Positions 3,401-49,730 of a stretch of DNA of 64,000 nt are shown piece by piece. A model generated the notes under the pieces. It saw nothing but the letters and a program-made list of their open reading frames with translations, was not told the DNA's origin and made no database searches. The DNA is from a virus. Its lineage: Duplodnaviria > Heunggongvirae > Uroviricota > Caudoviricetes. Location of the stretch: IMG/VR virus record IMGVR_UViG_3300029740_000238; one strand, 5' to 3'. The translations under genes and the position numbers were made by a program. How positions within the stretch are numbered: the first letter of the stretch is position 1; each line of letters starts with the position of its first letter.

Positions 3401-4734
3401 GTAAAGAAGAGCAGAAGCCAAATATTTATCAAATCCCCAAAAACTCGTTTGATACCGGGTATGTGTTGAACGGACAATTCAAAACTCGAAACTTCGTTGA
3501 AGGTATCATCCTGGCACTACCGTTCTTGGGAATTTTCATTTATGGATGGCATGATTTGGGATGGGATGTACAAAGTACCGTGGCCTATTGCGCAATACTC
3601 TGTGCTGCTGCTTTCCTTGGTGCAGCTCATGGTGTTGGCGGCGATAGCTTGTTTGAGTTTATTCAACGTGTTATCCGTTTCCGGCAAAGTCGCAGAATCT
3701 CAAAATACAATCCTCGTATCAAAACCGAACTTGAACCGGAATATCTGATTCATGACGGGCGGATGCTCCCGAAAGACAAGCTCAAGCAAATGCTTGGCAC
3801 TGTAAAGGGAAAAGTTCTTGGTGAAGAGAACGGTCCTATCAGTTCCGACATTACAGATGAAGAGCTCAAGGTCTTCTACGATGATGACTATGGGTTCCTG
3901 GAAAAACCGGATGCCCTCAAATCTAAAGCAGAACTCCGTGCTGAAGCAAAACAGCGTGCGAAAGAAGAGAAGGAATACATTAACTCTTTGCCCCGTTCTG
4001 AACGCAAGGCTGCCAGAGAAGAAATCAAGCGTAAGCGTGAACAGGAAGAGGCTGAGAAGAAGGCAAAAGAAGCAGAGCGCGAACGCATTATTAACGAAGC
4101 TATTAAGAAGCGTCTGGATAAAGCCGAGCGTGTTAAGACCGCACAGTATTACGAGAAGTTCATGGACCCCGACAATGAGCAGGAAAATGACAAGCCGGAA
4201 GAGAATAACGCTGAACTGAATCCTCAGGCTGTAGAGTTCAAGCCCGTCGCTGTAGGGCCGAGCAATAATGCGGTTCAGGATGATGTCGATATCTTTGACA
4301 GTGAAGAAAGCATCGACACCGATGAAGTAGAAGCGAATGTGGAAGCAGATGCGGATACAGAGCTGTTTGAGGACGGCACTGATACCGATATCCAAGCCCC
4401 GCAGATTGATGATGTAGTCTTTGACGATGAAACGGAAGTACTTGACGTCGATGAGGACTTGGATGACTTGTCGGTTGATATCCAGGATACTCAGTCTGCA
4501 CAGCCCGCAAAGCAGGGCAGGGGACAAGTCGTGAACAGCGATGACGATGCCAGCTTGGATGATGTAGACCTTTTCGATGACAGCACGGTCAGCCGCACAG
4601 AGGAAAGACCTCAGAACGTCAAAACCTCTGGAAAGACGATGGGCTCGCAAAAGCAGCCGCAAACCACACAGAACAACAGCGATATTGATTATATGTCCTT
4701 GAATGACATTTCTATCTTTGATAGTGAGGAGTGA
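3397..4734 (+). CDS. Conjugal-transfer membrane protein (TcpE/PrgI/VirB3-like) with a long acidic low-complexity C-terminal tail
   Basis: ATG at 3397 follows AAAAGGGGGAAG. Two hydrophobic helices sit near the N-terminus. The gene lies immediately upstream of the VirB4-like gene. The C-terminal ~200 aa are rich in Asp and Glu. Confidence 0.6.
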   Translation: MSKEEQKPNIYQIPKNSFDTGYVLNGQFKTRNFVEGIILALPFLGIFIYGWHDLGWDVQSTVAYCAILCAAAFLGAAHGVGGDSLFEFIQRVIRFRQSRRISKYNPRIKTELEPEYLIHDGRMLPKDKLKQMLGTVKGKVLGEENGPISSDITDEELKVFYDDDYGFLEKPDALKSKAELRAEAKQRAKEEKEYINSLPRSERKAAREEIKRKREQEEAEKKAKEAERERIINEAIKKRLDKAERVKTAQYYEKFMDPDNEQENDKPEENNAELNPQAVEFKPVAVGPSNNAVQDDVDIFDSEESIDTDEVEANVEADADTELFEDGTDTDIQAPQIDDVVFDDETEVLDVDEDLDDLSVDIQDTQSAQPAKQGRGQVVNSDDDASLDDVDLFDDSTVSRTEERPQNVKTSGKTMGSQKQPQTTQNNSDIDYMSLNDISIFDSEE

Positions 4735-4739
4735 AGCCT

Positions 4740-7400
4740 ATGTTTCGATTCAAAAATGGCGGAGAAATCCCCCACGGTGTTGTGGAACAGAGTATCGGTA
4801 CAATCCCGCTGACGAAAAAGGAACGCGATGAAATCGCCAAAGAAGAGCGGCGGCGGATGAATCAAAAGCTGGAAGCTCAGAATGAGCGCTATCAAATCAT
4901 TCGAAGCACACAGCGTATCATCCCTATTGAGGATATTTACGGCGGCATTGTTGTGACAAAGGACCACCGATATATCAAAATCATGGAATTTCGCCCTATC
5001 AACTTTGCCTATATGGACGCGGAAACTCAAAACCGTATTATTTCGCTTTTCTATCAAACGTTCAAAGCAACTCCCTGCAATATCCAGTTCAAAACCTTTT
5101 CTCGTAAAGCTGATGTCGAGAATTCAATCGCGACCGTGACGGACTATTACAAAGCAGAAAAGAATCCGAGTCGTAAGCGAATGTTGCAGGCATACATCGG
5201 ATTGCTTCGTAAGACGGCTTTGTCCGTTGGTATTACCCGTCGCTTCTTTGTGGTCGTAGAATTCCAGCGCACTATCAGCAACGATGGTTCTAAATTTGAA
5301 ATGGTTGTGGCCGACTTGAATGCCGTTGCGGCAAACGTCCGCTCTCACATGGAACAGTGTGGTAATATCTTTATTCCTGCACTTGGTAACCCTGACGGAA
5401 ACGAGGACGCAGGTCTACACCAGCTTTTTTACCAGCTCTTGAACCGTAGAAAAAGCGAGACCATCACGTTCAAGCAGCATATGGACCCCATTGTTGACCG
5501 TTATTTTGAAGCCGAAAAGAATGGCGTTAAGACGTCTTTGCAGGCAACGGAACTGATTGCTCCGGACTGGATTGACTTTACGCATCACGATTACATTGTC
5601 ATTGATGGCAAGTTTTATACTTTCGCTTACATTCCCTCGAACGGGTTCAGCCAGCGTGTCTATGCGGGCTGGGTGGCTACGTTCGTAAATGCTGGTGAAG
5701 GCATTGACGTCGATATGTTCTTTGAGCACATGTCCCGTGAAGCTGTCTTCAATAAAATCAGTACACAGCTTCGTCTGAGCCGTGCAAACGCCATGGACAG
5801 TCACGATACTGACTCTGACTATCAGGCGCGTATGGAAAAAATTTCGTCCAGTGAATATATGCTGCGCGGCCTTTCCAGCGGCGAAGAGTTCTATTACCTG
5901 TCAATGCTCATCACTATTGTGGCAGATACAAAGAAGGAACTCGATTATAAGTTCGATGCTTTGAAAAAGCGTATCGAAGGTCAGAGCATGAAGATTCGCC
6001 GTGCGGATTTCATGATGGAAGAATGCTTCGATTCCTGCCTGCTTCCTCTTGCGAAAATCAATAAGGAGCTGGCAAAGAAATCTCATCGCAATCTTCTGAC
6101 TTCGGGTGTTGCATCCTGCTATCCGTTCATCTCGTTTGAAATGCAGGACCCGGGCGGCGTTATGGTCGGGACAAATCATGTCAACAACTCTCTGGTCACC
6201 ATCGATATGTTTGATACCCGCGCTCATGCAAACGCAAACGCCGTTATCTTGGGCTCTTCCGGTTACGGCAAGACTTTCACCGCACAGCTGTTCGCACTAC
6301 GCTTGTCTGAGATGGACACGCAGGTGTTTATCATCTCTCCTCTGAAAGGTTTGGAGGACTACGGCGGCGGTTGTAAGGCAGTCAATGGTCAGTTCGTCTC
6401 CATGGACCCCTCTTCGGACAACAACATCAACATCATGGACATTCGCGCTCCTGACGATGAGGACGCAAAACTGCTGGATGATTATGAGGCTTCCGGCTCC
6501 TTCTTGACCAAAAAGATTCATACGATTCTTTCGTTCCTGCACCTGGTTGTTCGCAATATGACGCAGGAAGAAGAGCAGCTGATTGACGGCTGCCTGTATG
6601 CGACATACGCAAAGTTCGGCATCACCCGTGATAACAACTCTATCTACGATAAAGATGGCAACTATAAGGTGATGCCGCTGCTGGAAGATTTGCAGGAAGA
6701 AATGAGAAAAAACCCTGAACTGCATACCGTCTGCAACATCTTGAATCCGCTAATTAACGGTTCTATGGCTTGCTTCAATCACCACACCAACGTGGACCTT
6801 GACTCCAAGTACATCGTATTTGACTTCAATGGCATGAAAGGCTCTTTGCTTACCATGTCTATGTTCGTGGTTCTGGACTTTGTCTGGACGAAAATCAAAG
6901 AGGACCGTACACAGCGCAAAGCCGTATTTATTGACGAATGCTGGAAATTGATTGGCACTGACTCTAACGAGCAGGCAGCTGAAGACGTTGTAGAAATCTT
7001 CCGTACGATTCGTGCTTATGGCGGTTCCGCTTTTGCTATGACTCAGGATATTTCTCAGTTCTACGAATACAAGGGCGGCAAATACGGCAAGGCAATTATT
7101 GGTAACGCCGATACCAAAATCATCATGCACCTGATTCCGTCCGAAGCAAAAGCCCTTCAGGAAGCCATTCAGCTGACCAGCGTTGAGATGGAAGCGGTAT
7201 CCAGTCTGCCGCGTGGTCAAGGTCTGGTTTGCTCTGCATCCGCAAAACTGTTCGTCGATTTTGTGGCCGATGACTATGAAGCCAAGGAAATCACAACCGA
7301 TGCTAAGTCCTTCTACGAACGCCGCAAGGCTTTGGAAAAGAAAAAGCGGGAAGAAGAAGAGAAGGCGGCGGAAAATACCGTCATTGATGTTGAAATGTGA
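4740..7400 (+). CDS. VirB4/TrsE/TcpF-family conjugative transfer ATPase
   Basis: Walker A GSSGYGKT and Walker B VFIDECWKL are present. The protein is ~880 aa. GAGGAG lies 9 nt upstream of the ATG at 4740. Confidence 0.9.
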   Translation: MFRFKNGGEIPHGVVEQSIGTIPLTKKERDEIAKEERRRMNQKLEAQNERYQIIRSTQRIIPIEDIYGGIVVTKDHRYIKIMEFRPINFAYMDAETQNRIISLFYQTFKATPCNIQFKTFSRKADVENSIATVTDYYKAEKNPSRKRMLQAYIGLLRKTALSVGITRRFFVVVEFQRTISNDGSKFEMVVADLNAVAANVRSHMEQCGNIFIPALGNPDGNEDAGLHQLFYQLLNRRKSETITFKQHMDPIVDRYFEAEKNGVKTSLQATELIAPDWIDFTHHDYIVIDGKFYTFAYIPSNGFSQRVYAGWVATFVNAGEGIDVDMFFEHMSREAVFNKISTQLRLSRANAMDSHDTDSDYQARMEKISSSEYMLRGLSSGEEFYYLSMLITIVADTKKELDYKFDALKKRIEGQSMKIRRADFMMEECFDSCLLPLAKINKELAKKSHRNLLTSGVASCYPFISFEMQDPGGVMVGTNHVNNSLVTIDMFDTRAHANANAVILGSSGYGKTFTAQLFALRLSEMDTQVFIISPLKGLEDYGGGCKAVNGQFVSMDPSSDNNINIMDIRAPDDEDAKLLDDYEASGSFLTKKIHTILSFLHLVVRNMTQEEEQLIDGCLYATYAKFGITRDNNSIYDKDGNYKVMPLLEDLQEEMRKNPELHTVCNILNPLINGSMACFNHHTNVDLDSKYIVFDFNGMKGSLLTMSMFVVLDFVWTKIKEDRTQRKAVFIDECWKLIGTDSNEQAAEDVVEIFRTIRAYGGSAFAMTQDISQFYEYKGGKYGKAIIGNADTKIIMHLIPSEAKALQEAIQLTSVEMEAVSSLPRGQGLVCSASAKLFVDFVADDYEAKEITTDAKSFYERRKALEKKKREEEEKAAENTVIDVEM

Positions 7401-12340: not shown

Positions 12341-13090
12341 ATGGTAAAGACTGATTTCAAGAACACTTATGAAGCATTTATGCATTGCGATAAAAACAAG
12401 CTGGCGAAAGAATTTGCTGCCATGTATTCTGATAACGAGGAACAGGCGGCAGCAGTCAAGGAAGTCGATAGAGCATTTGCAAGAATGGAGACCGTCACGC
12501 CGAAAGCGGTGAACCCGGATGAACAGAGTATCATTGTGGTTTGCAAGGGATTTGGCGATGAGGGGGATGACACTGTCTGCATCGAAGTGGAAAACCTCCG
12601 TAAATGGAGAGAAGAGCACCTGAAAGAATCTGAGCCCATCAGTGATGAGATGCTGACCTTTATGAGCACGGACGAAATCGAGAATGCAGTGATGAAACAG
12701 GACCTTCCCACGAAATATGCTTTTGAGCTCAGTGCTTGGAATGAAATTCTTAGCTGGAAACTGGCACCATCCAGCATCTACATCTATGGCCTTGAATTCT
12801 GCCTGTCCCGTGTGTTATGGGAAATGACCTTCTTTGGTGTAGATGCATCCGGCGTTGAGCTGGAAAAGGAAAAGCTCGATACGAGATTTGAGGAAGCGCA
12901 GAGGGCTTTTGATGAAAACAAGGAACCTCGAATTGGATTCTCGATTGAAGACATTTCCAAGAAACTTCTCGGTGATGACTATACCGAAGACTGGTATCCC
13001 GAAGAAGAGCAGGAGCGCGACCGCCGGAACATGGTTATCTCTTCCTACAAAGACAATAATGAGATGGAACGGCTGCTCATGATGCTTTAA
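12341..13090 (+). CDS. Hypothetical protein
   Basis: 249-aa ORF tightly coupled to the upstream gene. Confidence 0.55.
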   Translation: MVKTDFKNTYEAFMHCDKNKLAKEFAAMYSDNEEQAAAVKEVDRAFARMETVTPKAVNPDEQSIIVVCKGFGDEGDDTVCIEVENLRKWREEHLKESEPISDEMLTFMSTDEIENAVMKQDLPTKYAFELSAWNEILSWKLAPSSIYIYGLEFCLSRVLWEMTFFGVDASGVELEKEKLDTRFEEAQRAFDENKEPRIGFSIEDISKKLLGDDYTEDWYPEEEQERDRRNMVISSYKDNNEMERLLMML

Positions 13091-13115
13091 GAGAAAACGA
13101 GAAGGGGAGATGAGG

Positions 13116-13955
13116 ATGAGCGAAATCTTCGTGGCGGGAGATATCCATGGAAACTATCAAGGATTGATGGAATCTCTCAATGCAGCAGGCTGGCAGGAAG
13201 GCGATACCATCATCTGCGTGGGAGATGTCACCGACCGTGGAAAAGATAATGCCAGAACGGTGTCTTTTCTGCAAGAGCATGAATGTGATGTGAGATTGGT
13301 TCAGGGCAACCATGAGCTTCAACACAGGAAGATGCTTCAGTACTATCATGTGTTAATCAAAGTCCCCCAAATTCGGTTGTTTGCGGCAGGAATATTCAGA
13401 ACATACAAGGAAGGATATACTTATCCCAAAACAAAAGAAGAACTCAAAGAGTATGAGTGCAGTGCTGATAAACGAATCGAAATTATTCGGGGGAAGCCAA
13501 AGACTTTCTATGCATTCGTTCGTGCCTTTATCACCTATACGATAGCATGGGAAGACGATAGCCTTTGGAAGATTATTCTGTACTTGCTGGAAGTGATGTG
13601 CGGCAATCCCTATGATGCCGAAAGAACTATATACGAGTATCTCTCCTGTACAAGGAAACAAAGAGCAGCGTTTGAATGGCTTTGGAATCAGACGGTTACG
13701 GAGGTTAATATAGATTATACAGAGCCATATAGATATCAGCATATAGTGATTACGCATAACAATCCTTTTGGAAGATATTACAGTTACGACCTGGATGAGT
13801 TACGACTTGGACACGATAAGACGCTCTATATCTTTGGACACATCCCGCATTCCGAAATTGTGAGATTCGACAGGGATTGTTCCGGATGCACTTATCTGGA
13901 CATTGACACATCTCCGAACTCGGTTGGCGTCATTAAGCTGAGCGATTATCTCTAA
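13116..13955 (+). CDS. Calcineurin-like metallophosphoesterase (Ser/Thr phosphatase fold)
   Basis: GDIHGN, GDVTDRG and GNHE motifs. RBS GGGGAG. Confidence 0.8.
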   Translation: MSEIFVAGDIHGNYQGLMESLNAAGWQEGDTIICVGDVTDRGKDNARTVSFLQEHECDVRLVQGNHELQHRKMLQYYHVLIKVPQIRLFAAGIFRTYKEGYTYPKTKEELKEYECSADKRIEIIRGKPKTFYAFVRAFITYTIAWEDDSLWKIILYLLEVMCGNPYDAERTIYEYLSCTRKQRAAFEWLWNQTVTEVNIDYTEPYRYQHIVITHNNPFGRYYSYDLDELRLGHDKTLYIFGHIPHSEIVRFDRDCSGCTYLDIDTSPNSVGVIKLSDYL

Positions 13956-16288: not shown

Positions 16289-16398
16289 ATTTCACACTCC
16301 TTTTTTCCAGTATACCACAAGATAGGCTCAAGCAAAAAGAAAGGAGCCACCCGAAGGCGACTCCAATGGTTTGAATTTCAGTCTGCGTCGTGAAAGCA

Positions 16399-17435
16399 TC
16401 AGGCGGCAGACGGGGTATCCGTTGCTGCATCAAAGAGCAGCGTGCCCTCGCCGTTGTAGCTTGCATCATTCAGAGCAGCGTAGGTGTAGTCAATGAAGTA
16501 GCCATCATCACCGTTATAGGCGGACTTCATGGAGATGAGATTGCCGTTGTCATCATAGGTGTTCTCGAAGGTCTGTTCGAAGTTGCCCATCGTAGCATCT
16601 TTGCCCTGCTGTTTGGTCATATTGCCATGCTCATCGTATTCGGTCGAGACCTCACTGCCCTGACCAAAATAATAAGTGGTCTTGTTGTCGCTCGCGCGCT
16701 TGTGATACACAATGTCATCTGCACCATCTTCGCTGACAGTTTCGATGTACAGGCCATCGACATCCATGGTATCGAAATCGCGGGTCGTGGTCTGGACACC
16801 GCTATCATTCGTGATAACTTCCGTGACGGGCAGCTCATGGGTATCATCATAGGTATAGGCGGTGGAGTAGTTCAGATACTGCTCACCATCACTTACGGTG
16901 TAGGACTCTTCGCTCAGTTTCCGGCCGTTGTCATCATAGGTGTACTGGCACACGATGGAAGGATTGCCATCCTCATCATCGCGTTCAATCATGTCCCCGT
17001 GGTCGTTGAAAACCTGAGTGTACAGATAGTTTTGCTCGCCATTGAGGCAGGAGGCCATTTTCAGGACATTGCCGTTCTCGTCCAGCTCTTTGATAATAAC
17101 GGTGTCCATATCACTTGCTTTGTCGATTTCACGCATGAAAACCTCATTGCCGTTCTCATCGTACTTATGGACGGTAACAACGCCATCTTCATCATCAGCA
17201 CTGTAGTGCATCGTCTCGGTGCTCAACAGCAGGTCCTCTGCAGCAGCTTCGTCTACATCAGTAACCTCGGAAGGCGCTTCCTCCGGCGTAGTCTCCTCAA
17301 CCACAGAACTTTCAGCCGGGGCGGTAGAAGCTGCTTCGGAAGAGAAAGCGGCGGCTTCTGAGTAGCGCATCCGGCAAGCATCAGGGCTGCAGCGGTTGCC
17401 ACAGCAGCGGCAGCGGTCAGGTTTTTGTTTCTCAT
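16399..17435 (-). CDS. Putative surface lipoprotein with D/N/G/Y-rich repeats; the signal peptide and the mature part are in different frames (apparent frameshift near 17340-17370)
   Basis: The ATG at 17435 (RBS AGGAGA) encodes MRNKNLTAAAAVATAAALMLAGC in one frame. The 324-aa body (SEAAAFSSEAAS...) is in another frame. Confidence 0.5.
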
Positions 17436-17561
17436 GTTCTTTCGTTCTCCTTCGTTTGGATAGTTTTTGCACAAATACTTCAATGTTGTATTTGTTGTAC
17501 AACTCCTATTGTATCTGGCTCGCATATCCCGGCAAGCAAACAAGGATTACAAAATAGTAAT

Positions 17562-17599
17562 TACAAGCCGTCTGCCTTCGGGTGGGCGGCTTTTTTCTT
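17562..17599 (+). terminator. Terminator-like hairpin with a UUCG loop and a T-run (GGGTGGGCGGCTTTTTTCTTTTG family)
   Basis: 12-bp stem AAGCCGTCTGCC / GGTGGGCGGCTT. Confidence 0.55.
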
Positions 17600-17620
17600 T
17601 TGAAAAAATGTTTGACGAAA

Positions 17621-17657
17621 CTTGCGAACGGCATACAATAAGTGTTGTACGACAGAT
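17621..17657 (+). promoter_or_regulatory. Recurrent promoter-like motif (TTGCGAACGGCATACAAT) plus a downstream inverted partner TTGTACGACAGATA
   Basis: A member of the GTGCGAAT..TACAAT family. Confidence 0.45.
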
Positions 17658-17697
17658 AATAAACCGACATCAACCATTCATAATCTGACAAATTCAG

Positions 17698-17731
17698 ACA
17701 GGCACCAATCGGGTGACCTGTCTTTTTTGTT
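17698..17731 (+). terminator. Leader hairpin plus T-run between the promoter-like motif and the 17769 gene
   Basis: GACAGG ... CCTGTC stem followed by TTTTTTG. Confidence 0.45.
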
Positions 17732-17768
17732 GCAAGACCGCGTAATGCGGAGAAAGTCGAGAAAAGCT

Positions 17769-18119
17769 ATGAACACCATTATGAACACCGCCGAATTCAT
17801 CCGCGTTACCGACCTCCTGAAGAAGGAGAAAATTGCCAAAAATAGCGTCAACATATTTGCCGCTATGATGGCGATGCGCGAGAACCGCCCCGAAGCAATC
17901 TGCGCAGATGGCTTTAAGATGTCTATCCAGGCATCCGAAGACCACTACTGCCAGAAGGACGACGAGGGGAGCTACGTGAGCGTAGAAGTCGGGTTCCCGT
18001 CTCCGTCCGAGCCATTGCTCGACGAATATGGTGATGACGGAGTGTACGGCTATGTGCCGCTCACTGTTGTCGATGCCATCATCGCCAAGCACGGTGGAAT
18101 CCTGCTCGATGAGCAGTAA
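17769..18119 (+). CDS. Small hypothetical protein
   Basis: 116 aa. Its N-terminus (MNTIMNTAEF) resembles the N-termini of the two downstream paralogs. Confidence 0.5.
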   Translation: MNTIMNTAEFIRVTDLLKKEKIAKNSVNIFAAMMAMRENRPEAICADGFKMSIQASEDHYCQKDDEGSYVSVEVGFPSPSEPLLDEYGDDGVYGYVPLTVVDAIIAKHGGILLDEQ

Positions 18120-18252
18120 GCCACTCTATCCAATTCCAGCATGACATTCGGCTGCACGCCGTATGCTCATATATGAAGCAGTTATCGTAAAAATGATAGC
18201 TGCTATTTTTATTTTACAAGCCTCGAAAATACGAGGAGAAAGAGAGTTTGCT

Positions 18253-19413
18253 ATGAAAACCGCTATGAACACCAACATCAACACCAACACTACCAATTCC
18301 AAGAAAGTTATCCCCGGCATCAATGACGTGGCTACCAAATGCCCTAAGGTCGCTGCCATGTGGAGTGACAAGAACACCTTCTCTCCCAGTAAAGTGGCTG
18401 CGGGAAGCAGAAGAAAGTTCACATTTGTTTGCCCAGACTGTGGGCAGGAATTTGAAAGCAAAATCTTTAGTGTTGTTCGTTCGGTAATGAACGGTAACAC
18501 TGGTTGCCCTGTTTGTGCAGGTAAAAAGATTGTTTCCGGCATCAATGATGTGGCTACTAAGTGCCCTATGGCCGCTGCCATGTGGAGTGACAAGAACGCT
18601 TTCACTCCCAGTGAAGCACCTGCAGGAAGCCACAAAAAAGCCATTTTTGTGTGTCCTGATTGCGGACAAGAGTTTGAGTCTTCCATTTGCAATGTCGTCA
18701 ACTCTTTGATGCATTACCGCACCGGTTGTCCCGTTTGTCGTGGCTTGAAAGTGGTTTCCGGAATCAACGACTTGGCTACTAAGTGCCCTGCAGCAGCCAA
18801 CATGTGGGGCAGCAAAAACGCTTGCTCTCCAAATGAGGTATCTGCAGGCAACAACAAAATGGCATGGTTTGTCTGCCCCGACTGCAAACAGGAGTTTAAG
18901 GCTCCCGTTTGCAACGTCGTCAATTCTTTGTTGCATGACAATACCGGTTGCCCTGTTTGTGCAGGTCGCAAAGCTGTTTCCGGCGTCAACGATTTGGCGA
19001 CCATGTATCCAAAAGCCGCTGCTATGTGGAGCGGCAAGAACGATTACGCCCCCAGCAAAATTCCTGCTCGGTCGTCCAGACGCGCAATTTTTGTGTGCCC
19101 CGATTGCAAACAAGAGTTTGTGACAAGCATCCACAACATGACGCGGGCTATTGCATCCGGTGTTACTTGCTGCCCCAATTGCAGAATGCGAGGACATACT
19201 ATCGGTGCGATTTACAAGGATGAGTATGGTTCGCCGAAATCTGTTGGCACTACGATGACGATGAAGGACGGCAGCAAAGCCACCTGCACCGCTTATCATG
19301 GTGTCAACAACATCACCGTCGAGTTCGAAGACGGGTTCGTTCTGTACCATGCTCGCTGGAATCAGTTTATCCGTGGCGCTCTTCACCACGGTCAGAAAAC
19401 CACTGAAGAATAA
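18253..19413 (+). CDS. Protein with four tandem ~70-aa zinc-ribbon repeats (GINDxATKCP ... W ... KN ... CPDC ... GCPVC)
   Basis: Internal repeats were seen directly. RBS GAGGAGAAAG. Paralogous to the next gene. Confidence 0.7.
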   Translation: MKTAMNTNINTNTTNSKKVIPGINDVATKCPKVAAMWSDKNTFSPSKVAAGSRRKFTFVCPDCGQEFESKIFSVVRSVMNGNTGCPVCAGKKIVSGINDVATKCPMAAAMWSDKNAFTPSEAPAGSHKKAIFVCPDCGQEFESSICNVVNSLMHYRTGCPVCRGLKVVSGINDLATKCPAAANMWGSKNACSPNEVSAGNNKMAWFVCPDCKQEFKAPVCNVVNSLLHDNTGCPVCAGRKAVSGVNDLATMYPKAAAMWSGKNDYAPSKIPARSSRRAIFVCPDCKQEFVTSIHNMTRAIASGVTCCPNCRMRGHTIGAIYKDEYGSPKSVGTTMTMKDGSKATCTAYHGVNNITVEFEDGFVLYHARWNQFIRGALHHGQKTTEE

Positions 19414-19542
19414 TAAAAAGCCATCTGATACGAAGTTGGCTTGTGAATGTGAATGTAGCAGCTATCATCTTCCTCCAGTAGGGGGATGGTCGCTGCTTTT
19501 TTATTACAAGCCTCGAATGTTACGAGGAGAAAGAGAAAAATT

Positions 19543-21102
19543 ATGAATGCTTTTATGAATGTTATGCACACCACCACCTGCAACTGCACTGCTTGCACGA
19601 CTGTTCCGACTCTTGGCATTAAGATGCCGTATGAGGAAGAGGAAAAGAAAGCTACTAAAACTAGAAAGACTCGCCAAAAACTGATTGTTGGAGAAAACGA
19701 TTTGGCTACGGTCGCTCCTGAAGTTGCCGCAATGCTGAGTGAGAAAGATAAGCACTTTGCTTTTGAAGTTACTGCTGGAAGCAACAGGAAACTTACTTTT
19801 GTCTGCCCTGACTGCAAGAAAGAGTTTGAGGCTAAAATTTGCAGTGTCACAATAGCAGTTTGCCCATGTCCTTATTGCCGCAAAGTAAAAAAAGCGCGTC
19901 GCAATCCGAAACCTATTGTTGGAGTTAATGATTTGGCTTCGCAATGCCCGCAGGCTGTAGCAATGTGGAGCGAAAAGAATAAATGCTACCCAGCAGAAGT
20001 TTTCGCCCAAAGCACTAAGACTGCAATTTTCAATTGCCCAAAATGTAAGCACGAATTTGAGACGACTGTCACATCCTTTGTGAAAAGCATCAAAAAATCG
20101 AAAGGCAATACTACTGGCTGCCCTATCTGTAATGGGACTAAAGTTGTTGTTGGCTACAATGATTTAGCTACGACCTGCCCCCAAGTAGCTGCTATGTTAA
20201 GCAAAAAAAACGCTGACTTTGCAACAAAGTACACTATGGGAAGCAATGCGGTTGCAAGTTTTACTTGTCCTGATTGCAAAAAAGAGTTTGAGGCTAAAAT
20301 TTGCAAAGTCACAAATGTAGTTTACCCATGTCCTTATTGCCGCGATACGAAAATTCTCGCTAATCATATGGATTTGGAAACTTACTTAAAGAAAAATAAT
20401 CGAGAGGATATTCTTAACTGTATTCGTCCAGATAGTCCGTATCAGGCAAGTGAAGTTTCTTATTCCAGCAACAAAACATTATTTCTTAATTGCCCTGAAT
20501 GTGGTAATAAATGGGTGATTTCAGCTAATTATCTGACTGCACAAGGCATTAGTTATATGTGTGGTAATTGTAATCAAACGACAAATTTTATTTCCAAACC
20601 AGAGCAGTATGCTGTTCGTATTGCAATGGGTTTTGCAAGGGAAAACGGAGTTCCAAATGCATTCGATGAAGTTCGTCACATTTTTGGCTATAACAACAAA
20701 TATGGTGTAGATTTTGTCGATAACACTCGCAAGGTTTGCATGGAGTACAATGGTGTATATTGGCATAAAGACAAAAAAAGAGTTGATTGCTATAAATTCA
20801 TCAAAATCCATAATGCCGGATATACTTTTATTCGTATACTGGAACCGGGCTTAAAAGCTTTTGACAAAAAATATGACATTGTATTGCCAAAAAACAACAA
20901 ACACGGTAACGAGTATGAATCAAAAATCATGGAGGACCTTGGCTATAAGCTTATTTCTTTATTTGAGGAAATCTATAATTACAAGGCCACTCCTGAAATT
21001 CAAAAATTAGTCGATTTTAAAGAATTCGAAAAGTGGTACGATATTCATCGCAAAAGAATTTCTGCAAAAGCTACCGACAACGCAGCAAAGAAAGCTGCCT
21101 GA
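19543..21102 (+). CDS. Zinc-ribbon-repeat protein with a C-terminal DUF559/Vsr-like PD-(D/E)xK-type nuclease domain
   Basis: Four to five repeats of the same zinc-ribbon unit. The C-terminal region (VDFVDNTRKVCMEYNGVYWHKD ... GYTFIRI) resembles Vsr/DUF559 endonucleases. Confidence 0.65.
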   Translation: MNAFMNVMHTTTCNCTACTTVPTLGIKMPYEEEEKKATKTRKTRQKLIVGENDLATVAPEVAAMLSEKDKHFAFEVTAGSNRKLTFVCPDCKKEFEAKICSVTIAVCPCPYCRKVKKARRNPKPIVGVNDLASQCPQAVAMWSEKNKCYPAEVFAQSTKTAIFNCPKCKHEFETTVTSFVKSIKKSKGNTTGCPICNGTKVVVGYNDLATTCPQVAAMLSKKNADFATKYTMGSNAVASFTCPDCKKEFEAKICKVTNVVYPCPYCRDTKILANHMDLETYLKKNNREDILNCIRPDSPYQASEVSYSSNKTLFLNCPECGNKWVISANYLTAQGISYMCGNCNQTTNFISKPEQYAVRIAMGFARENGVPNAFDEVRHIFGYNNKYGVDFVDNTRKVCMEYNGVYWHKDKKRVDCYKFIKIHNAGYTFIRILEPGLKAFDKKYDIVLPKNNKHGNEYESKIMEDLGYKLISLFEEIYNYKATPEIQKLVDFKEFEKWYDIHRKRISAKATDNAAKKAA

Positions 21103-21158
21103 TAGATTACAAGACCTCTGACGAACTCAGTCGTCTTTTTACATAGATAGCGTTTCCT

Positions 21159-21197
21159 GCCGTTCACCCATAACCGGGTGGGCGGCTTTTTCTTTTG
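21159..21197 (+). terminator. Rho-independent terminator (same GGGTGGGCGGCTTTTTCTTTTG family)
   Basis: GCCGTTCACCC ... GGGTGGGCGGC stem plus T-run. Confidence 0.6.
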
Positions 21198-21430
21198 CCA
21201 ACTACTTGCCATACGTCAATTTCATGCATGAATTACAAAATAGTAACCGTTCCATACAACCGCTGGCGATGACTACCAGTTGTAGTGTATTTGATTGGAC
21301 TTCCAAATTCTATTTTACACGCACATATTGCAACTTACGGTTGTATTTGTTATACTAATAACAACCGATAACAACCAACAAAGAGCAAATAACAACTAAC
21401 AGGTGTTGCGGCAAACAAGGGAGGCCAATC

Positions 21431-23461: not shown

Positions 23462-24016
23462 GTGAATAGCAAGTATCGAGAGCAAACCTGCTGCTTTGTC
23501 GGGCACAAGGATATCCCACCGGGAGAAAAGCTCAAAATATTAGCCAGAGTAGAGCATCGACTGATTCCTCTCATTCAGCAGGGAGTCATATACTTTGGTA
23601 TCGGTGGCTCTTTAGGGTTCGATGCCCTCATGGCAGATATGCTGGTTTCCTTGAAAGCTGCACATCCTCGTATTCGTATCATTGAGGTTTTACCATTTGA
23701 GGGATACCGTTCCAGGTGGAGTTTAGAACAACAGCGGCACGCAGAGAAGATAGACAAACAGGTGGATAAGATTGTCTATGCGGCGAAAGAGCCAAGCAGG
23801 GGAGTATATCTTTTAAGAGACCGGCATTTAGTGGATTGTTCTGCCTATTGCATCTCCTATTGTACTAGAAATACTGGAGGCACAGCATATACGGTAAAAT
23901 ACGCTCTGGAACATGGCGTAACGGTGTATAACGCTTCCAGTTTCGATGTGAGCGCCTTGCTTCAGGCTCAGCCGCTTGGGAAGAACGAACAGGTAGTGTC
24001 TTCGCACAAAATATGA
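23462..24016 (+). CDS. SLOG-superfamily protein (DUF1273/YpsA-like)
   Basis: CCFVGHKDIP near the N-terminus matches the C-x-TGHR signature. GTG start with RBS GAAGGTGAAG. Confidence 0.55.
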   Translation: MNSKYREQTCCFVGHKDIPPGEKLKILARVEHRLIPLIQQGVIYFGIGGSLGFDALMADMLVSLKAAHPRIRIIEVLPFEGYRSRWSLEQQRHAEKIDKQVDKIVYAAKEPSRGVYLLRDRHLVDCSAYCISYCTRNTGGTAYTVKYALEHGVTVYNASSFDVSALLQAQPLGKNEQVVSSHKI

Positions 24017-36748: not shown

Positions 36749-38914
36749 ATGGCAAGAAGGAAAACAAACGACTTGGAAAATCAGATGTCGCTGATGGACA
36801 TGATGGCATCGGAAAGCCCCGAATATACCGAAGAAGGCCCGGAAGAACTCTTGGACCCCGGCGAGGACATGGAGGACAGTGAAGGGCAGACGGATAAGCC
36901 CTTCAAACTCGTGGCGAACAAGACCACGAAGGCAAAGGCGAGCATCTCCACGCAGGCGTTGAGTGTTGTGAAGGCGGTATATGCTGATACGGTAGAAACG
37001 AATTGGGAAGAGTTGTTTGACGGGTTCGACAGACTCTATGCTATCACTTTTTCGTCCGGTATCGAGTTCGTGAATAAGGTCATCAACAAGTTCTCGTATG
37101 CGGAAGTCGTGTTCGGCTGCGAGAAAATCATCGCCAACGACATTGCTGCCATCATGTCGGTGCAAATCGACAGCGTGCAGCGGCTCGCTAAGTCTAAGTC
37201 GGCAGGGAACCTTGCGAACCGCCTCGATGACGGGTCTTTGCAGCTGTATGTATCGCGAGACACGAAATCGCACGAGAAAATCTTTATCTTGGAGAGCGCT
37301 GACCATAAGCGTGTCCGAGTCATCACCGGCAGTGCGAATATGTCGGCATCGGCGTTTTGCGGCATTCAGCGAGAGAATATCGTCTGCTTCGATGACGAGG
37401 CGGCATTTTCGCATTACAAGGTTCTGTTCGAGACCTTCAAGGAGACCTGCTCCGACAATGTCTCCTATAAGGCAGTCGTGAACACCATGAACCAGGAAGA
37501 TTATCTGAAAGAGAACATCAAAGAAGTACCCGTCTTTCAGTCTATTGAAAAGCAGAAGCTTGTCTTTCTGGAACAGGCACAGCCTGAGGATGAGGTCGAA
37601 TACGAGATAGTTGCCGATGTCAAGAAAATGCAGGAACTCGTCAAGCCAATCATGCCTAAGATGCCGGTACAGGCGAATCGTATTGTAGTGGCAGCGGAAC
37701 CGATGCGCGTTTTCGGGAAACGATATACCGAGGTTCGGCGTGTGGCAGCTGAGGCAGTTAAGCAGCTCCCGAAATTACATATCGACTATGATGCCGGGAC
37801 CATGACCTTCAACGACGAGAATATCGACCTCAATCCGAATCTCAGCGAGGTGGCAAAGAACATCAAGAGCATCCAGAAGTTCTTCTCAGGCATGGACTAC
37901 TTTTACGGCGATATCGAGCAGGCCAAGAAGGACTACTTCAAATACATGACCTGGTATCTGGCTACTCCGTTCATGGCGTATCTGCGGTATTTCGCATCGA
38001 GGAACAACTACGATACGAAGCTGTTCCCGATGTACGGCGTTATATACGGCGACTCAAACGGCGGCAAGACGACATTTATAAAATTTCTTGTCAAACTCAT
38101 GTGCGGTGAGACCGTTAAGATGAACACGACGGAGGATTTCACAGCCACAAGAATCGACGGCCTCAAACGAGTTTGTGAGGGACTGCCGCTGAACATCGAC
38201 GACCTCGCCAAGACCCAGTTTCAGAACCATTCAGAACGGGTAATCAAGAACGATGAATGGGGTATCTCGGACAGGCTTGTGAACTATCCTGCTGTATCTA
38301 TCACATCGAATAAAATTACCTCGCTGACAAAAGACCTCTCGAAACGCGCTATCATCTGTCGAATTGGTGCTAAAATCGACAACGAGCGCGGTGCCAAGAA
38401 CTCGAAGCGTGTGAATGAGAGTATGTCGGAGCTGACAACCGCGTTCTATGGCGAATATGTCCGCCGAATGCTTGTTTGCATCGATGAGATGACGACGGAA
38501 ATGCGTGAAAATGCGAATGGCAAGGAATACTTCCCGGATATCTTCCACGCTTCGTCTAGCGTCATTGCAGATATCTTCGAGGCATGCGGAATCGATTTGC
38601 CGGACTATGTGCGTATCCTGTACTATAACGACTATATGGGTGATGAGAGCATTGGTCGTGCTGCAATTGAGAAAATCGAACTGGCATGGCAGGCTGACCC
38701 GAGCAAGTTCCGGGTCGATAAGAAGCAGAACAGGCTCATTTACTCCTATCCGCCGGATGGACCGTGGTACGAACTGAAATACATTGCAGATGAGCTGCCG
38801 AACTCCCTCGAAGCAGAGATTTCTGGCGGCAACCAGCTTATCATGAACTACGAGCAGGCACAGGAATTGTTCGGCATCAAGTTTCGGCGCTGGCTGGGCA
38901 TCTTTAACCTCTAA
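36749..38914 (+). CDS. Large protein with an N-terminal PLD/HKD-like nuclease motif and a C-terminal P-loop NTPase (VirE/primase-C-terminal-like)
   Basis: SHEKIFILE ... ITGSANMS resembles an HxK ... GSxN motif. Walker A YGDSNGGKTTF and Walker B LPLNIDDL. Confidence 0.55.
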   Translation: MARRKTNDLENQMSLMDMMASESPEYTEEGPEELLDPGEDMEDSEGQTDKPFKLVANKTTKAKASISTQALSVVKAVYADTVETNWEELFDGFDRLYAITFSSGIEFVNKVINKFSYAEVVFGCEKIIANDIAAIMSVQIDSVQRLAKSKSAGNLANRLDDGSLQLYVSRDTKSHEKIFILESADHKRVRVITGSANMSASAFCGIQRENIVCFDDEAAFSHYKVLFETFKETCSDNVSYKAVVNTMNQEDYLKENIKEVPVFQSIEKQKLVFLEQAQPEDEVEYEIVADVKKMQELVKPIMPKMPVQANRIVVAAEPMRVFGKRYTEVRRVAAEAVKQLPKLHIDYDAGTMTFNDENIDLNPNLSEVAKNIKSIQKFFSGMDYFYGDIEQAKKDYFKYMTWYLATPFMAYLRYFASRNNYDTKLFPMYGVIYGDSNGGKTTFIKFLVKLMCGETVKMNTTEDFTATRIDGLKRVCEGLPLNIDDLAKTQFQNHSERVIKNDEWGISDRLVNYPAVSITSNKITSLTKDLSKRAIICRIGAKIDNERGAKNSKRVNESMSELTTAFYGEYVRRMLVCIDEMTTEMRENANGKEYFPDIFHASSSVIADIFEACGIDLPDYVRILYYNDYMGDESIGRAAIEKIELAWQADPSKFRVDKKQNRLIYSYPPDGPWYELKYIADELPNSLEAEISGGNQLIMNYEQAQELFGIKFRRWLGIFNL

Positions 38915-49357: not shown

Positions 49358-49592
49358 GGTGTACTCCTTTCAAATGTGTCATTTGCTGTATAATAATGTC
49401 ATCTTCTGTAATTATAATAGCACATCTCGTACTAAAAAGCAAGCATGAATTTACAATAAATGACAAGAAAATACACGAGATGACATATTTGGGCAAAGCG
49501 GTTGATTTTTGGCATTTCCTGTTCAGCAACGGAACAAGTCCCATGTGCCTTGTCTTTGTCACGGCTTTGCCATATTTTTGCCTTGTGCATCC

Positions 49593-49610
49593 GTGCGAAT
49601 TGAATATGAT
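49593..49610 (+). promoter_or_regulatory. Recurrent promoter-like motif variant GTGCGAATTGAATATGAT
   Basis: Family member upstream of hsdM. Confidence 0.4.
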
Positions 49611-49635
49611 GGGAAATATAAAATAAATAAGTGTA

Positions 49636-49672
49636 AGCCGCAGAGATTATGTTTCTGCGGCTCTTTCTTTTG
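49636..49672 (+). terminator. Leader hairpin plus T-run between the promoter-like motif and hsdM
   Basis: Perfect 9-bp stem AGCCGCAGA / TCTGCGGCT followed by CTTTCTTTTG. Confidence 0.5.
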
Positions 49673-49730
49673 TGGTCCCCATGCGGATGAAAATGTCTGC
49701 GTGGGGATTTTAATTTTAGGAGAATCTATT

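What the first reader, a model, noticed from the sequence alone, without database searches (positions are those of the whole stretch)
18163..21102. Tandem paralogs built from repeated zinc-ribbon modules, one with a Vsr/DUF559-like nuclease; the 5' UTR is duplicated with the gene
Both proteins consist of four to five ~70-aa repeats (G-[IV]-ND-[LV]-ATxCP ... W ... KN ... CPDC ... E ... GCP.C). The second adds a C-terminal endonuclease-like domain (CMEYNGVYWHKD ... GYTFIRI). The ~50-nt upstream sequences are near-identical (TTATTTTACAAGCCTCGAA..TACGAGGAGAAAGAGA), so the duplication included the leader. The N-termini MKTAMNT, MNAFMNV and the upstream MNTIMNT (17769) resemble each other. Repeat-array nucleic-acid-binding proteins of this kind are typical of phage and mobile-element conflict systems, and I did not recognise them as a named family.
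Basis: partly seen in the sequence, partly recalled or inferred. Interest (0 to 1): 0.6.

Follow-up and report, generated by a model that had tools for sequence, protein, structure and literature searches.

The report
Zinc-ribbon homing-type nuclease cassette
Two neighbouring genes on a gut-bacterial conjugative element encode arrays of zinc-ribbon modules, and the second carries an intact Vsr/EDxHD-type homing-endonuclease domain; with a small acidic gene they form an optional three-gene operon whose nuclease gene is swapped, mutated and deleted in natural populations, as expected of a selfish or competitive site-specific nuclease of a family recognised only recently.

Summary
Gene A (18253-19413) has four in-register 74-aa DUF4379 zinc-ribbon repeats plus a small beta-rich C-terminal module. 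Gene B (19543-21102) has three canonical repeats, one degenerate repeat and a C-terminal nuclease domain. That domain matches the EDxHD/Vsr homing endonuclease I-Bth0305I, and all its catalytic residues are invariant in homologues. This architecture was described in 2025 as a large unrecognised outgroup of EDxHD/Vsr homing endonucleases, so B is a new member of a known kind.

New here:
- A, B and an upstream acidic 116-aa gene S form one operon. Each gene follows a terminator-like hairpin, a TTRCAAGMC motif and a small hairpin at the ribosome-binding site.
- The operon is a 3.7-kb insert flanked by 15-bp direct repeats and is absent from about half of related elements.
- The body of B is a recently exchanged block, 99-100% identical across backbones 8-20% diverged. 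Other alleles at the same locus are about 50% identical.
- Variation concentrates on one face of a helix in each repeat.
- B is often inactivated, and six independent deletions share one end at 20546/20547.

Best reading: a site-specific, homing-endonuclease-like DNA nuclease with a modular recognition array. The roles of S and A are inferred only.

The parts
17546..17560 (+). Left copy of the 15-bp direct repeat ATTACAAAATAGTAA that flanks the S-A-B insert
   Evidence: Identical copy at 21232-21246. Elements without the cassette carry a single related copy.
17561..21246 (+). S-A-B cassette: a 3686-bp insert relative to related elements that lack it
   Evidence: 36 of 74 metagenome loci anchored on the PolY promoter lack it. 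The junctions are precise.
17565..17592 (+). Terminator-like hairpin plus T-run at the cassette's left end. It is homologous to the one at 21159-21186 and is preceded by TTACAAGCC at 17561.
   Evidence: (family D5).
17612..17639 (+). Promoter-like site TTGACG-16-TACAAT of the operon
   Evidence: 10/12 match. Conserved in L015, where the operon sits in an unrelated context.
17696..17757 (+). Leader of S: terminator-like hairpin 17696-17723 plus U-run, TTGCAAGACC, small hairpin CCGC/GCGG at 17738-17750, then GGAGAAAG
   Evidence: Fold z-score -2.6; alignment; regex.
17769..18119 (+). Gene S: 116-aa acidic protein (pI 4.4) with no family match
   Evidence: Always found upstream of A and B.
18177..18241 (+). 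Leader of A: terminator-like hairpin 18177-18204 plus U-run, TTACAAGCC, small hairpin CCTCG/CGAGG at 18221-18236 overlapping the ribosome-binding site
   Evidence: (z-score -4.4).
18253..19413 (+). Gene A: 386 aa, a nuclease-free zinc-ribbon array
   Evidence: Four DUF4379 hits. AF2 model pLDDT 75. Homologues have 2-6 repeats.
18313..19200 (+). Four 74-aa zinc-ribbon repeats of A (aa 21-316)
19234..19392 (+). C-terminal beta-rich module of A (about aa 328-380): four strands plus a helix, nearly invariant in A-type homologues
19457..19536 (+). Leader of B: terminator-like hairpin 19457-19497 plus U-run, TTACAAGCC, small hairpin CCTCG/CGAGG at 19511-19527, then GGAGAAAGAGA
   Evidence: (z-score -3.6).
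19543..21102 (+). Gene B: 519 aa, zinc-ribbon array plus EDxHD/Vsr-type nuclease
19543..19632 (+). Conserved N-terminal 30 aa of B with the motif H-x3-C-x-C-x2-C. Homology between B alleles ends at about 19632.
19687..20358 (+). Three canonical zinc-ribbon repeats of B (aa 49-118, 126-202, 203-272)
20359..20592 (+). Degenerate fourth zinc-ribbon unit of B (DUF7836-type), ending in MCGNC
20546..20547 (.). Deletion hot spot CTGCACAAGG^CATTAGTTATATG: the shared right end of six independent deletions
20593..20862 (+). EDxHD/Vsr-like nuclease domain (aa 351-440), with catalytic candidates E354, D390, E401/N403, H408 and D415
20863..21099 (+). Conserved helical C-terminal tail of B (aa 441-519)
19650..21300 (+). 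Recently exchanged block (the body of B plus its terminators): 99-100% identical in backbones that are 8-20% diverged on both sides. GC is 0.39 for gene B against 0.47 for the window.
21107..21186 (+). TTACAAGACC plus hairpin 21111-21137, and a terminator-like hairpin 21159-21186 after B
21232..21246 (+). Right copy of the direct repeat ATTACAAAATAGTAA
   Evidence: (family D9).

Best explanation
Gene B encodes a sequence-specific DNA endonuclease of the homing-endonuclease type. A C-terminal Vsr-like (EDxHD) catalytic domain is directed to its target by an N-terminal array of treble-clef zinc-ribbon modules. Each module presents one variable face of a short helix as its likely recognition surface. 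Gene A is a nuclease-free paralogue with the same kind of array plus a small beta-rich module, so it is a sequence-specific nucleic-acid binder of fixed specificity, most simply a regulator of the operon. S, A and B are one self-contained, optional operon on a conjugative element of human-gut Clostridia. Terminator-like hairpins ahead of each gene probably step expression down so that the nuclease is made least. The body of B behaves as a selfish or competitive cassette: it is exchanged between diverged backbones by recombination in conserved flanks, exists as deeply diverged alleles at one locus, and decays often.

Shown here: the domain identities, conservation of the catalytic residues, operon synteny, presence/absence of the cassette, allele exchange, the pattern of variability, and the inactivating mutations.

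Inferred only: DNA cleavage, the target, homing, and the roles of S, A and the leaders.
For: Architecture:
- DUF4379 hits four times in each protein.
- The C-terminal domain matches I-Bth0305I (3r3p) at E 0.0025, and 3e-5 with a profile. It also hits the PADLOC 'homing endonuclease' model (E 3e-5) and gives weak hits only to Vsr-clan families.
- The equivalents of I-Bth0305I's E170, D196, N208, H213 and D222 (PMC3239194) and of the acidic residue before N208 are B's E354, D390, E401/N403, H408 and D415. They are invariant in 43 homologues, and at least 95% conserved in 117.
- The same architecture was described as a new outgroup of EDxHD/Vsr homing endonucleases in phage introns (PMC12350094). 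It occurs in a coliphage gene annotated 'homing endonuclease', in giant-virus 'restriction endonucleases' and in several copies on actinobacterial plasmids.

Selfish or competitive behaviour:
- The cassette is absent from 36 of 74 related loci, with precise junctions and 15-bp flanking repeats.
- The body of B is 99-100% identical in backbones 8-20% diverged on either side.
- Other alleles at the same locus are about 50% identical, while S, A and PolY are 94-98% identical.
- B has lower GC (0.39) than its surroundings.
- B carries nonsense, frameshift and many deletion variants.

Recognition surface:
- Variability peaks at repeat positions 50, 52, 53, 56, 59, 60 and 62. These lie at the end of strand 2 and on one face of the following helix, and the pattern holds both among all repeats and among orthologues.

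Operon:
- S-A-B synteny holds in two unrelated contexts and carries its own promoter and terminators.
- The leader design is specific to the three genes.
Against: - No activity, target or homing event has been shown.
- The AF2 model of the nuclease domain has low confidence (pLDDT 29-55), so the fold rests on sequence alone. DUF559 is below Pfam's cut-off.
- A nuclease that homes into one constant empty site should keep its specificity. Instead, the putative recognition residues differ in every B allele, which fits conflict with variable targets better than simple homing.
- A classic free-standing homing endonuclease gene needs no partners, yet S and A travel with B.
- The deletion hot spot does not resemble the empty site more than chance allows.
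- The only solved DUF4379 structures sit in kinetoplastid mitoribosome and assembly-intermediate structures, so RNA rather than DNA binding is not excluded.
Confidence: 0.6

Rival explanations
1. S-A-B is a three-part conflict system of the conjugative element, used for defence against phages or warfare against rival plasmids, rather than a homing element. B is a nuclease whose specificity diversifies against changing targets. A is a fixed-specificity partner or regulator. The acidic S is an inhibitor or adaptor.
For: - The trio is conserved as a unit in two contexts, with its own promoter.
- B's putative recognition residues differ in every allele, while A's are identical. Variability is concentrated on one surface while the catalytic residues stay fixed.
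- The window also carries restriction-modification-like genes.
Against: - PADLOC finds no defence-system match apart from the generic homing-endonuclease model.
- Deletions that remove S keep an intact nuclease-domain ORF in many samples, so S is unlikely to be an essential antitoxin.
- B is frequently inactivated in nature and the cassette is absent from half the elements. That fits a dispensable or selfish gene.
Confidence: 0.22
2. B is a Vsr-like repair or processing nuclease that works with the neighbouring Y-family polymerase, or with conjugative DNA processing. The zinc ribbons recognise DNA structure rather than sequence.
For: - The Y-family polymerase lies directly downstream in most loci.
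- The catalytic core is Vsr-like.
Against: - The operon also occurs without the polymerase (L015), and the polymerase occurs without the operon in 36 of 74 loci.
- B has its own terminators, and the polymerase has its own conserved promoter.
- Deep allelic divergence and frequent loss are not expected of a repair enzyme.
Confidence: 0.05
3. The arrays bind RNA. A and B act on the operon's own leader RNAs or on other RNAs, for example in antitermination or RNA cleavage, not on DNA.
For: - Five copies of TTRCAAGMC plus a hairpin lie at gene boundaries in the cassette, against 0.5 expected.
- Terminator-like hairpins lie inside the transcription unit.
Against: - The catalytic domain's closest characterised relative cuts DNA.
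- All annotated relatives are DNA endonucleases.
- No Rfam family matches the leaders.
- There is no covariation beyond the three paralogous copies.
Confidence: 0.08
4. The genes are decaying remnants with no present function.
For: Many truncated, fused or interrupted copies exist in metagenomes.
Against: - The window's copies are intact.
- The intact B cluster has 483 member sequences and A-type clusters have more than 1000.
- The catalytic and zinc ligands are invariant.
- A's C-terminal module is nearly invariant.
Confidence: 0.05

Closest known systems
Zinc-ribbon-array (CapR/DUF4379/DUF723-like) plus EDxHD/Vsr homing endonucleases of phage group I and II introns (PMC12350094, 2025)
   Same: - Three to five ~60-70-aa zinc-ribbon modules followed by a ~100-aa EDxHD/Vsr-like nuclease domain.
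- Found in mobile DNA.
- The arrays are thought to act as nuclease-associated DNA-binding modules.
   Different: - Here the gene is free-standing, not inside an intron.
- It lies on a conjugative element of gut Clostridia.
- It sits in an operon with a nuclease-free paralogue and a small acidic protein.
- It carries a ~80-aa helical tail and a conserved N-terminal H-C-C-C motif.
- I did not compare it directly with the sequences in that paper.
I-Bth0305I, prototype of the EDxHD homing endonucleases (PDB 3r3p; PMC3239194)
   Same: The catalytic domain is detectably homologous (E 3e-5 with a profile). It has the same IEVNGVYWH-type core and the same set of catalytic residues.
   Different: - I-Bth0305I uses NUMOD/helix-turn-helix DNA-binding regions, not zinc ribbons.
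- It is encoded in an intron of a phage recA gene.
- Only about 50 residues align.
Giant-virus and phage 'restriction endonuclease / treble clef zinc finger' proteins (Marseilleviridae, Mimivirus R635, coliphage Bas95 'homing endonuclease')
   Same: Full-length structural matches over 430-500 columns (E down to 6e-21). Lausannevirus relatives have four DUF4379 domains plus a restriction-endonuclease domain, with frameshift variants.
   Different: - Sequence identity is only 13-28% in the fold matches and 23-25% by tblastn to phage records.
- Hosts are viral.
- No S or A partner genes are known there.
- None has been characterised biochemically, as far as the searched library shows.
Free-standing homing endonuclease genes of T-even and ICP1 phages ('nuclease genes occupy boundaries of genetic exchange', PMC10055350)
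   Same: - Sporadic presence.
- Mosaic identity boundaries at the nuclease gene.
- Allele replacement between close relatives.
   Different: - Different nuclease families and a different kind of host replicon.
- I saw only the title and abstract of that paper. The comparison otherwise rests on general knowledge.
C2H2 zinc-finger and TALE arrays (modular recognition)
   Same: Tandem small modules with variability focused on a few positions of one helix.
   Different: - Different fold (treble clef, 74 aa).
- No recognition code or DNA contact has been shown.
- This is an analogy only.

Membership tests
Pfam DUF4379 (PF14311, probable treble-clef zinc finger) | Score above Pfam's gathering threshold of 24.5 bits | tested here: met
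   A scores 133.4 bits (E 3e-39, 4 stretches). B scores 95.1 bits (E 2.8e-27, 4 stretches).
Pfam DUF4379 (PF14311, probable treble-clef zinc finger) | Two CxxC knuckles per unit and a treble-clef-like fold | tested here: met
EDxHD / Vsr-like homing endonucleases | Sequence homology of the catalytic domain to a characterised member | tested here: met
   3r3p (I-Bth0305I) at E 0.0025 with a single sequence and 3e-5 with a profile of 10 homologues. The PADLOC homing-endonuclease model scores E 3e-5.
EDxHD / Vsr-like homing endonucleases | Conserved catalytic residues E, D, (E-x-N), H, D | tested here: met
   E354, D390, E401/N403, H408 and D415 are invariant in alignment A3. H408 and D415 are mapped by the HMMER alignment. 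E354 and D390 are mapped by position and motif only (SKPE, GVDFVD).
EDxHD / Vsr-like homing endonucleases | Vsr-like alpha/beta fold | tested here: inconclusive
   The AF2 model of residues 340-420 has pLDDT 29-55. No fold match to a nuclease was obtained.
EDxHD / Vsr-like homing endonucleases | Site-specific double-strand cleavage next to the insertion site, and homing | not testable with these tools
   Only indirect signs are available: presence/absence polymorphism, a near-identical B block in diverged backbones, and a deletion hot spot.
Pfam DUF559 (PF04480) | Score above the gathering threshold of 20.6 bits | tested here: not met
   14.2 bits for the whole protein and 16.4 bits for the domain alone. 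B is related at clan level only.
Vsr very-short-patch repair endonuclease proper | Stand-alone ~150-aa enzyme, usually next to a Dcm-type cytosine methylase, acting on T:G mismatches | tested here: not met
   B is 519 aa with a zinc-ribbon array. No methylase is adjacent. No NCBIfam Vsr model matches. Mismatch specificity was not tested.
HNH endonuclease (the annotation of PHROG 559) | HNH/His-Me finger motif | tested here: not met
   Neither A nor B has a Pfam HNH hit. The PHROG match covers the zinc ribbons and the Vsr-like part, so I take the PHROG name to be a mislabel.
Known anti-phage defence systems (PADLOC) | Match of S, A or B to a defence-system protein model | tested here: not met
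   The only hits are a weak PDC-M14A hit on a zinc ribbon and the homing-endonuclease model.

The most novel reading that the evidence does not exclude
The 74-aa zinc-ribbon units form a modular, reprogrammable nucleic-acid recognition code, read out by about seven positions on one strand-helix face of each unit. The B alleles that replace one another at this single plasmid locus are then nucleases aimed at each other's cassettes or at rival elements. The recurrent break at 20546/20547 would be the in-vivo footprint of such a cut. S (acidic) and A (fixed specificity) would be the inhibitor and the leader-binding regulator of a three-part system that is not a classic homing endonuclease.
Probability: 0.15. 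Interest if true: 0.75.

Novelty: new member of a known kind. Interest (0 to 1): 0.4.

Why it matters
The family (zinc-ribbon arrays fused to an EDxHD/Vsr nuclease) was recognised only in 2025, and I found no biochemical characterisation of it in the library I searched. This locus offers a natural comparison set:
- dozens of alleles at one site in near-identical backbones;
- a nuclease-free paralogue of fixed sequence;
- empty sites;
- a recurrent in-vivo break point.

That makes several questions directly testable: what the arrays recognise, whether recognition is modular, and whether the nuclease drives allele replacement between conjugative elements of gut bacteria. If the arrays read DNA module by module, they would be a new compact scaffold for targeting nucleases. 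If not, this is one more homing-type nuclease on a mobile element.

Tried and rejected
- Near-identical DNA in the plasmid and phage collections: none.
- Two scans of species-representative genomes, using the B and A alignments: only one irrelevant hit. The host is therefore inferred only from VirB4 similarity to Subdoligranulum and Vescimonas plasmids (38%).
- Fold search with the full B model against the PDB: it returned only zinc-ribbon matches and nothing for the nuclease part, which is modelled poorly. The afdb50 library was unavailable.
- Gene S: no match in Pfam, NCBIfam, PHROGs, PADLOC or PDB sequences.
- Rfam on the leaders: nothing. My first leader pattern had the wrong spacing and found nothing; the regex replaced it.
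- Idea that the deletion hot spot is a pseudo-copy of the empty-site sequence (shared ACAAG(G)CATTA): rejected. 429 of 8526 windows of the 64-kb sequence score at least as well.
- Idea that A protects B's target by sharing its specificity: not supported. A's variable-position residues are the same in all loci, and B's differ in every allele.
- Idea that the fused ORFs are assembly artefacts: unlikely. The junctions have 0-4 nt of microhomology, too short for k-mer mis-joins, and they recur in ENA and Logan assemblies from different samples.
- Literature searches for a described S-A-B system or a CapR link: nothing relevant.
Full report
**What is there**

The finding spans two forward-strand genes. 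Gene A most likely starts at 18253 (MKTAMNT) and ends at 19413 (386 aa). Gene B starts at 19543 (MNAFMNV) and ends at 21102 (519 aa). Each start lies a few bases after GGAGAAAG.

A contains four head-to-tail 222-nt units at 18276-19163. Pfam's DUF4379, 'probable treble clef zinc finger', hits A four times (E 3e-39) and B four times (E 2.8e-27), far above its cut-off. With a repeat HMM of my own, A has four 74-aa units and B has three canonical ones. B also has a degenerate fourth unit, which DUF7836 matches. A and B are 40% identical (E 3e-67).

**The nuclease**

The last 184 residues of B match only Vsr-clan families in Pfam (DUF559, MTES_1575, DUF2726), all below their cut-offs. They match one solved structure, 3r3p, at E 0.0025, or 3e-5 with a profile of ten homologues. 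3r3p is the catalytic domain of I-Bth0305I, the prototype of the EDxHD homing endonucleases, whose fold is Vsr-like (PMC3239194). PADLOC's 'homing endonuclease' model also hits this stretch (E 3e-5).

The paper names E170, D196, N208, H213 and D222, plus a conserved acidic residue two positions before N208, as active-site residues. The corresponding B residues are E354 (SKPE), D390 (GVDFVD), E401/N403 (MEYNG), H408 and D415. All are invariant in a 43-sequence alignment and at least 95% conserved among 117 homologues.

The AlphaFold2 model is good for the repeats (pLDDT 75-89) but poor for this domain (29-55). The fold is therefore inferred from sequence, not shown.

**What is already known**

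[quoted passage not shown] B has this architecture.

Distant relatives with the same layout include:
- a coliphage gene annotated 'homing endonuclease';
- giant-virus 'restriction endonucleases' (full-length fold matches, E down to 6e-21; four DUF4379 domains plus a restriction-endonuclease domain in Marseilleviridae);
- genes present in 4-7 places per record on Rhodococcus and Curtobacterium plasmids, annotated 'zinc-ribbon domain-containing protein' or 'DUF559 domain-containing protein'.

**Gene A**

Nuclease-free arrays like A are common. Clusters P0122 and P0128 each have more than 1000 member sequences. Such arrays come with 2, 3, 4 or 6 repeats, always followed by a nearly invariant ~65-aa C-terminal module. 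The model shows this module as four strands and a helix, at moderate confidence, with weak SH3-like fold matches.

A search of 1.8 billion representative proteins found the module in 1175 proteins, usually as 4-13 tandem copies. One of them, P0192, also contains a Vsr-like core (GVEYDGVKWH). No Pfam family covers the module. A is therefore built entirely from modules that elsewhere accompany this nuclease family.

**Context: a three-gene operon**

The window is part of a conjugative element. It has a type IV coupling protein at 4-1563 and a VirB4-like ATPase at 4731-7400. The closest plasmid relatives of the ATPase are in Subdoligranulum and Vescimonas (38%).

Upstream of A lies gene S (17769-18119), which encodes a 116-aa acidic protein (pI 4.4) with no family match. 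The order S-A-B is kept in every related contig examined. This includes one in which all the flanking genes are different (L015), where homology starts at the promoter-like site 17612-17639 and ends after B's terminators.

Each of the three genes is preceded by the same set of elements:
- a strong terminator-like hairpin with a T-run (17696-17723, 18177-18204, 19457-19497; fold z-scores -2.6 to -4.4);
- then T(T/G)(A/G)CAAG(A/C)C;
- then a 4-5-bp hairpin abutting GGAGAAAG. The hairpin is CCGC/GCGG before S and CCTCG/CGAGG before A and B, so the stem is kept with a different sequence.

The full leader pattern occurs only at these three places in the window. The 9-mer alone occurs five times in the cassette, against 0.5 expected.

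The shared leader is therefore not just a by-product of the A/B duplication. It also precedes a non-homologous gene, and it is much better conserved than the coding DNA. My inference, untested, is that successive attenuators keep nuclease expression low, and that the motif plus hairpin is a processing or protein-binding site. Rfam has no match.

**The cassette is optional**

I anchored on an invariant 30-mer in the promoter of the downstream Y-family polymerase (21320-21349). This retrieved 84 human-gut metagenome contigs without reference to A or B. Of the 74 with enough upstream sequence:
- 36 lack S-A-B, and 21 of those also lack the RHS-repeat gene at 16399-17502;
- 12 carry the window's B allele;
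- 21 carry other B alleles;
- 5 are unclear.

Cassette-free elements have a single copy of ATTACAAA..GGTAA. In the window the 3686-bp cassette sits between two copies of ATTACAAAATAGTAA, at 17546-17560 and 21232-21246.

**B is exchanged as a block**

Between the window and L003 or L013, the flanking genes S, A and PolY are 94-98% identical at protein level, but B is only 50-52% identical. DNA homology stops about 90 nt into B (19632) and resumes at 21081.

Conversely, L021 and L027 are only 85-92% identical to the window across 18450-19650 and 80-93% identical after 21300. They are 99-100% identical across 19650-21300. The deletion variants show the same right-hand boundary.

The window's B has GC 0.39, against 0.45-0.47 for other alleles, 0.49 for A and 0.47 for the window. 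The body of B has therefore moved recently between diverged backbones by recombination in its conserved flanks, namely the leader plus the N-terminal 30 codons on one side and the terminator region on the other.

**Where the variation lies**

Repeat number ranges from 1 to 8 in 190 family members. Across 526 distinct repeats, the zinc ligands and the G-x-ND-L, P, W/S and F positions are fixed. Entropy peaks at repeat positions 50, 52, 53, 56, 59, 60 and 62. In the models these lie at the end of the second strand and on one face of the helix that follows.

The same periodic pattern appears among orthologous B proteins. In those proteins the nuclease domain, the tail and the N-terminal 30 residues (which carry an H-x3-C-x-C-x2-C motif) are much less variable.

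The residues at these positions are identical in A from the window, L003 and L013. They differ in every B allele. This is the pattern expected of a specificity surface that is fixed in A and diversifying in B. It also argues against A acting as a decoy for B's target. It sits awkwardly with simple homing into one constant empty site.

**Decay and a deletion hot spot**

Close relatives of the window's B include:
- a CGA-to-TGA nonsense allele (L021, L026);
- a 1-nt deletion (L027);
- in-frame losses of repeats;
- A-B fusions;
- many illegitimate deletions.

Nine mapped deletions all remove DNA to the left of a narrow zone in B. Six of them have different left ends (12955, 13540, 13667, 16895, 17113 and one outside the window) but share the right end CTGCACAAGG^CATTAGTT at 20546/20547, joined through 0-4 nt of microhomology. 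Three others end at 20408, 20474 and 20508. In the unbiased polymerase-anchored sample, 2 of 12 window-type loci are deletion derivatives.

The junctions recur in different assemblers and samples, so they are not assembly artefacts. A recurrent, site-specific break repaired by microhomology joining with one-sided resection would explain them. What makes the break is unknown. The site does not resemble the empty site beyond chance.

**Verdict**

B is best read as an active, site-specific, homing-endonuclease-like DNA nuclease of the recently recognised zinc-ribbon/EDxHD family. It sits in an optional three-gene operon of a gut conjugative element, and its allele behaves as a selfish or competitive cassette (confidence about 0.6).

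The main rival is that S-A-B is a conflict system with diversifying specificity rather than a homing element (about 0.2). The two readings differ mainly in the target, which only experiments can settle. The domain architecture is known, so B is a new member of a known kind. The operon design, the allele-exchange pattern and the break hot spot are new details that make the family experimentally approachable.

Noticed in passing
window 20408-20582, centred on 20546/20547: Nine or ten independent natural deletions end in this short stretch of gene B. Six end at the same dinucleotide, with 0-4 nt of microhomology. Their left ends cluster at 12955-13667 and 16851-17177. The pattern suggests a recurrent site-specific break of unknown cause.
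   Followed up: partly
window 19234-19392 (A residues ~328-380); proteins P0192, P0219, P0333: A's C-terminal beta-rich module is a widespread tandem-repeat domain (G.T..M.NG..ATC.AY....DIDVQFEDG..V). It is found in 1175 representative proteins, with up to 13 copies, sometimes with a Vsr-like nuclease core. It has no Pfam family.
   Followed up: partly
window 16399-17502 (- strand): The RHS-repeat gene is itself a presence/absence polymorphism. 21 of the 36 cassette-free loci also lack it and join the C_GCAxxG_C_C gene (about 16320) directly to the polymerase promoter region.
   Followed up: partly
window 16390-17361 (+ strand): This long ORF antisense to the RHS-repeat gene is probably not a gene. 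Gene callers nevertheless fuse it to the remnant of B in deletion variants (P0102, P0103, P0006, P0346), creating apparent chimeric proteins in public databases.
   Followed up: yes
window 21281-21349: The region upstream of the Y-family polymerase gene is extremely conserved, with 15-, 21- and 30-nt invariant runs separated by 1-2 variable positions. It includes a TTGCAA-17-TATACT promoter-like site. It is found in 84 human-gut metagenome contigs whose coding flanks differ by up to 20%.
   Followed up: partly
window 19543-19632 (B residues 1-30): The N-terminal peptide MN.F..VMH..TCNC.AC..VPTLGI.MPY, with an H-x3-C-x-C-x2-C motif, is among the most conserved parts of B-type proteins. It is also the left boundary of allele exchange. 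Its function is unknown and the model has low confidence here.
   Followed up: no
window 17561, 17730, 18214, 19504, 21107: The motif T(T/G)(A/G)CAAG(A/C)C followed by a hairpin marks every gene boundary of the cassette. It occurs five times against 0.5 expected, with only three other copies on this strand of the window.
   Followed up: partly
window 36749-38914, 43680-45875, 49509-51548: The same element carries a PLD/NgoFVII-like nuclease, a ResIII/SNF2 helicase and an N6 DNA methylase, so it has restriction-modification-like or defence cargo.
   Followed up: no
window 12341-13090 and 23462-24016: A DUF6557 protein and a YpsA/SLOG-family protein lie in the variable cargo region around the cassette. 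Related elements instead carry HipA_C, PIN and HTH-peptidase M78 genes downstream of the polymerase.
   Followed up: no
PHROG 559 / 681: PHROG 559 is labelled 'HNH endonuclease', but it matches B across the zinc ribbons and the Vsr-like domain, and B has no HNH motif. The label looks wrong for at least part of that family.
   Followed up: partly
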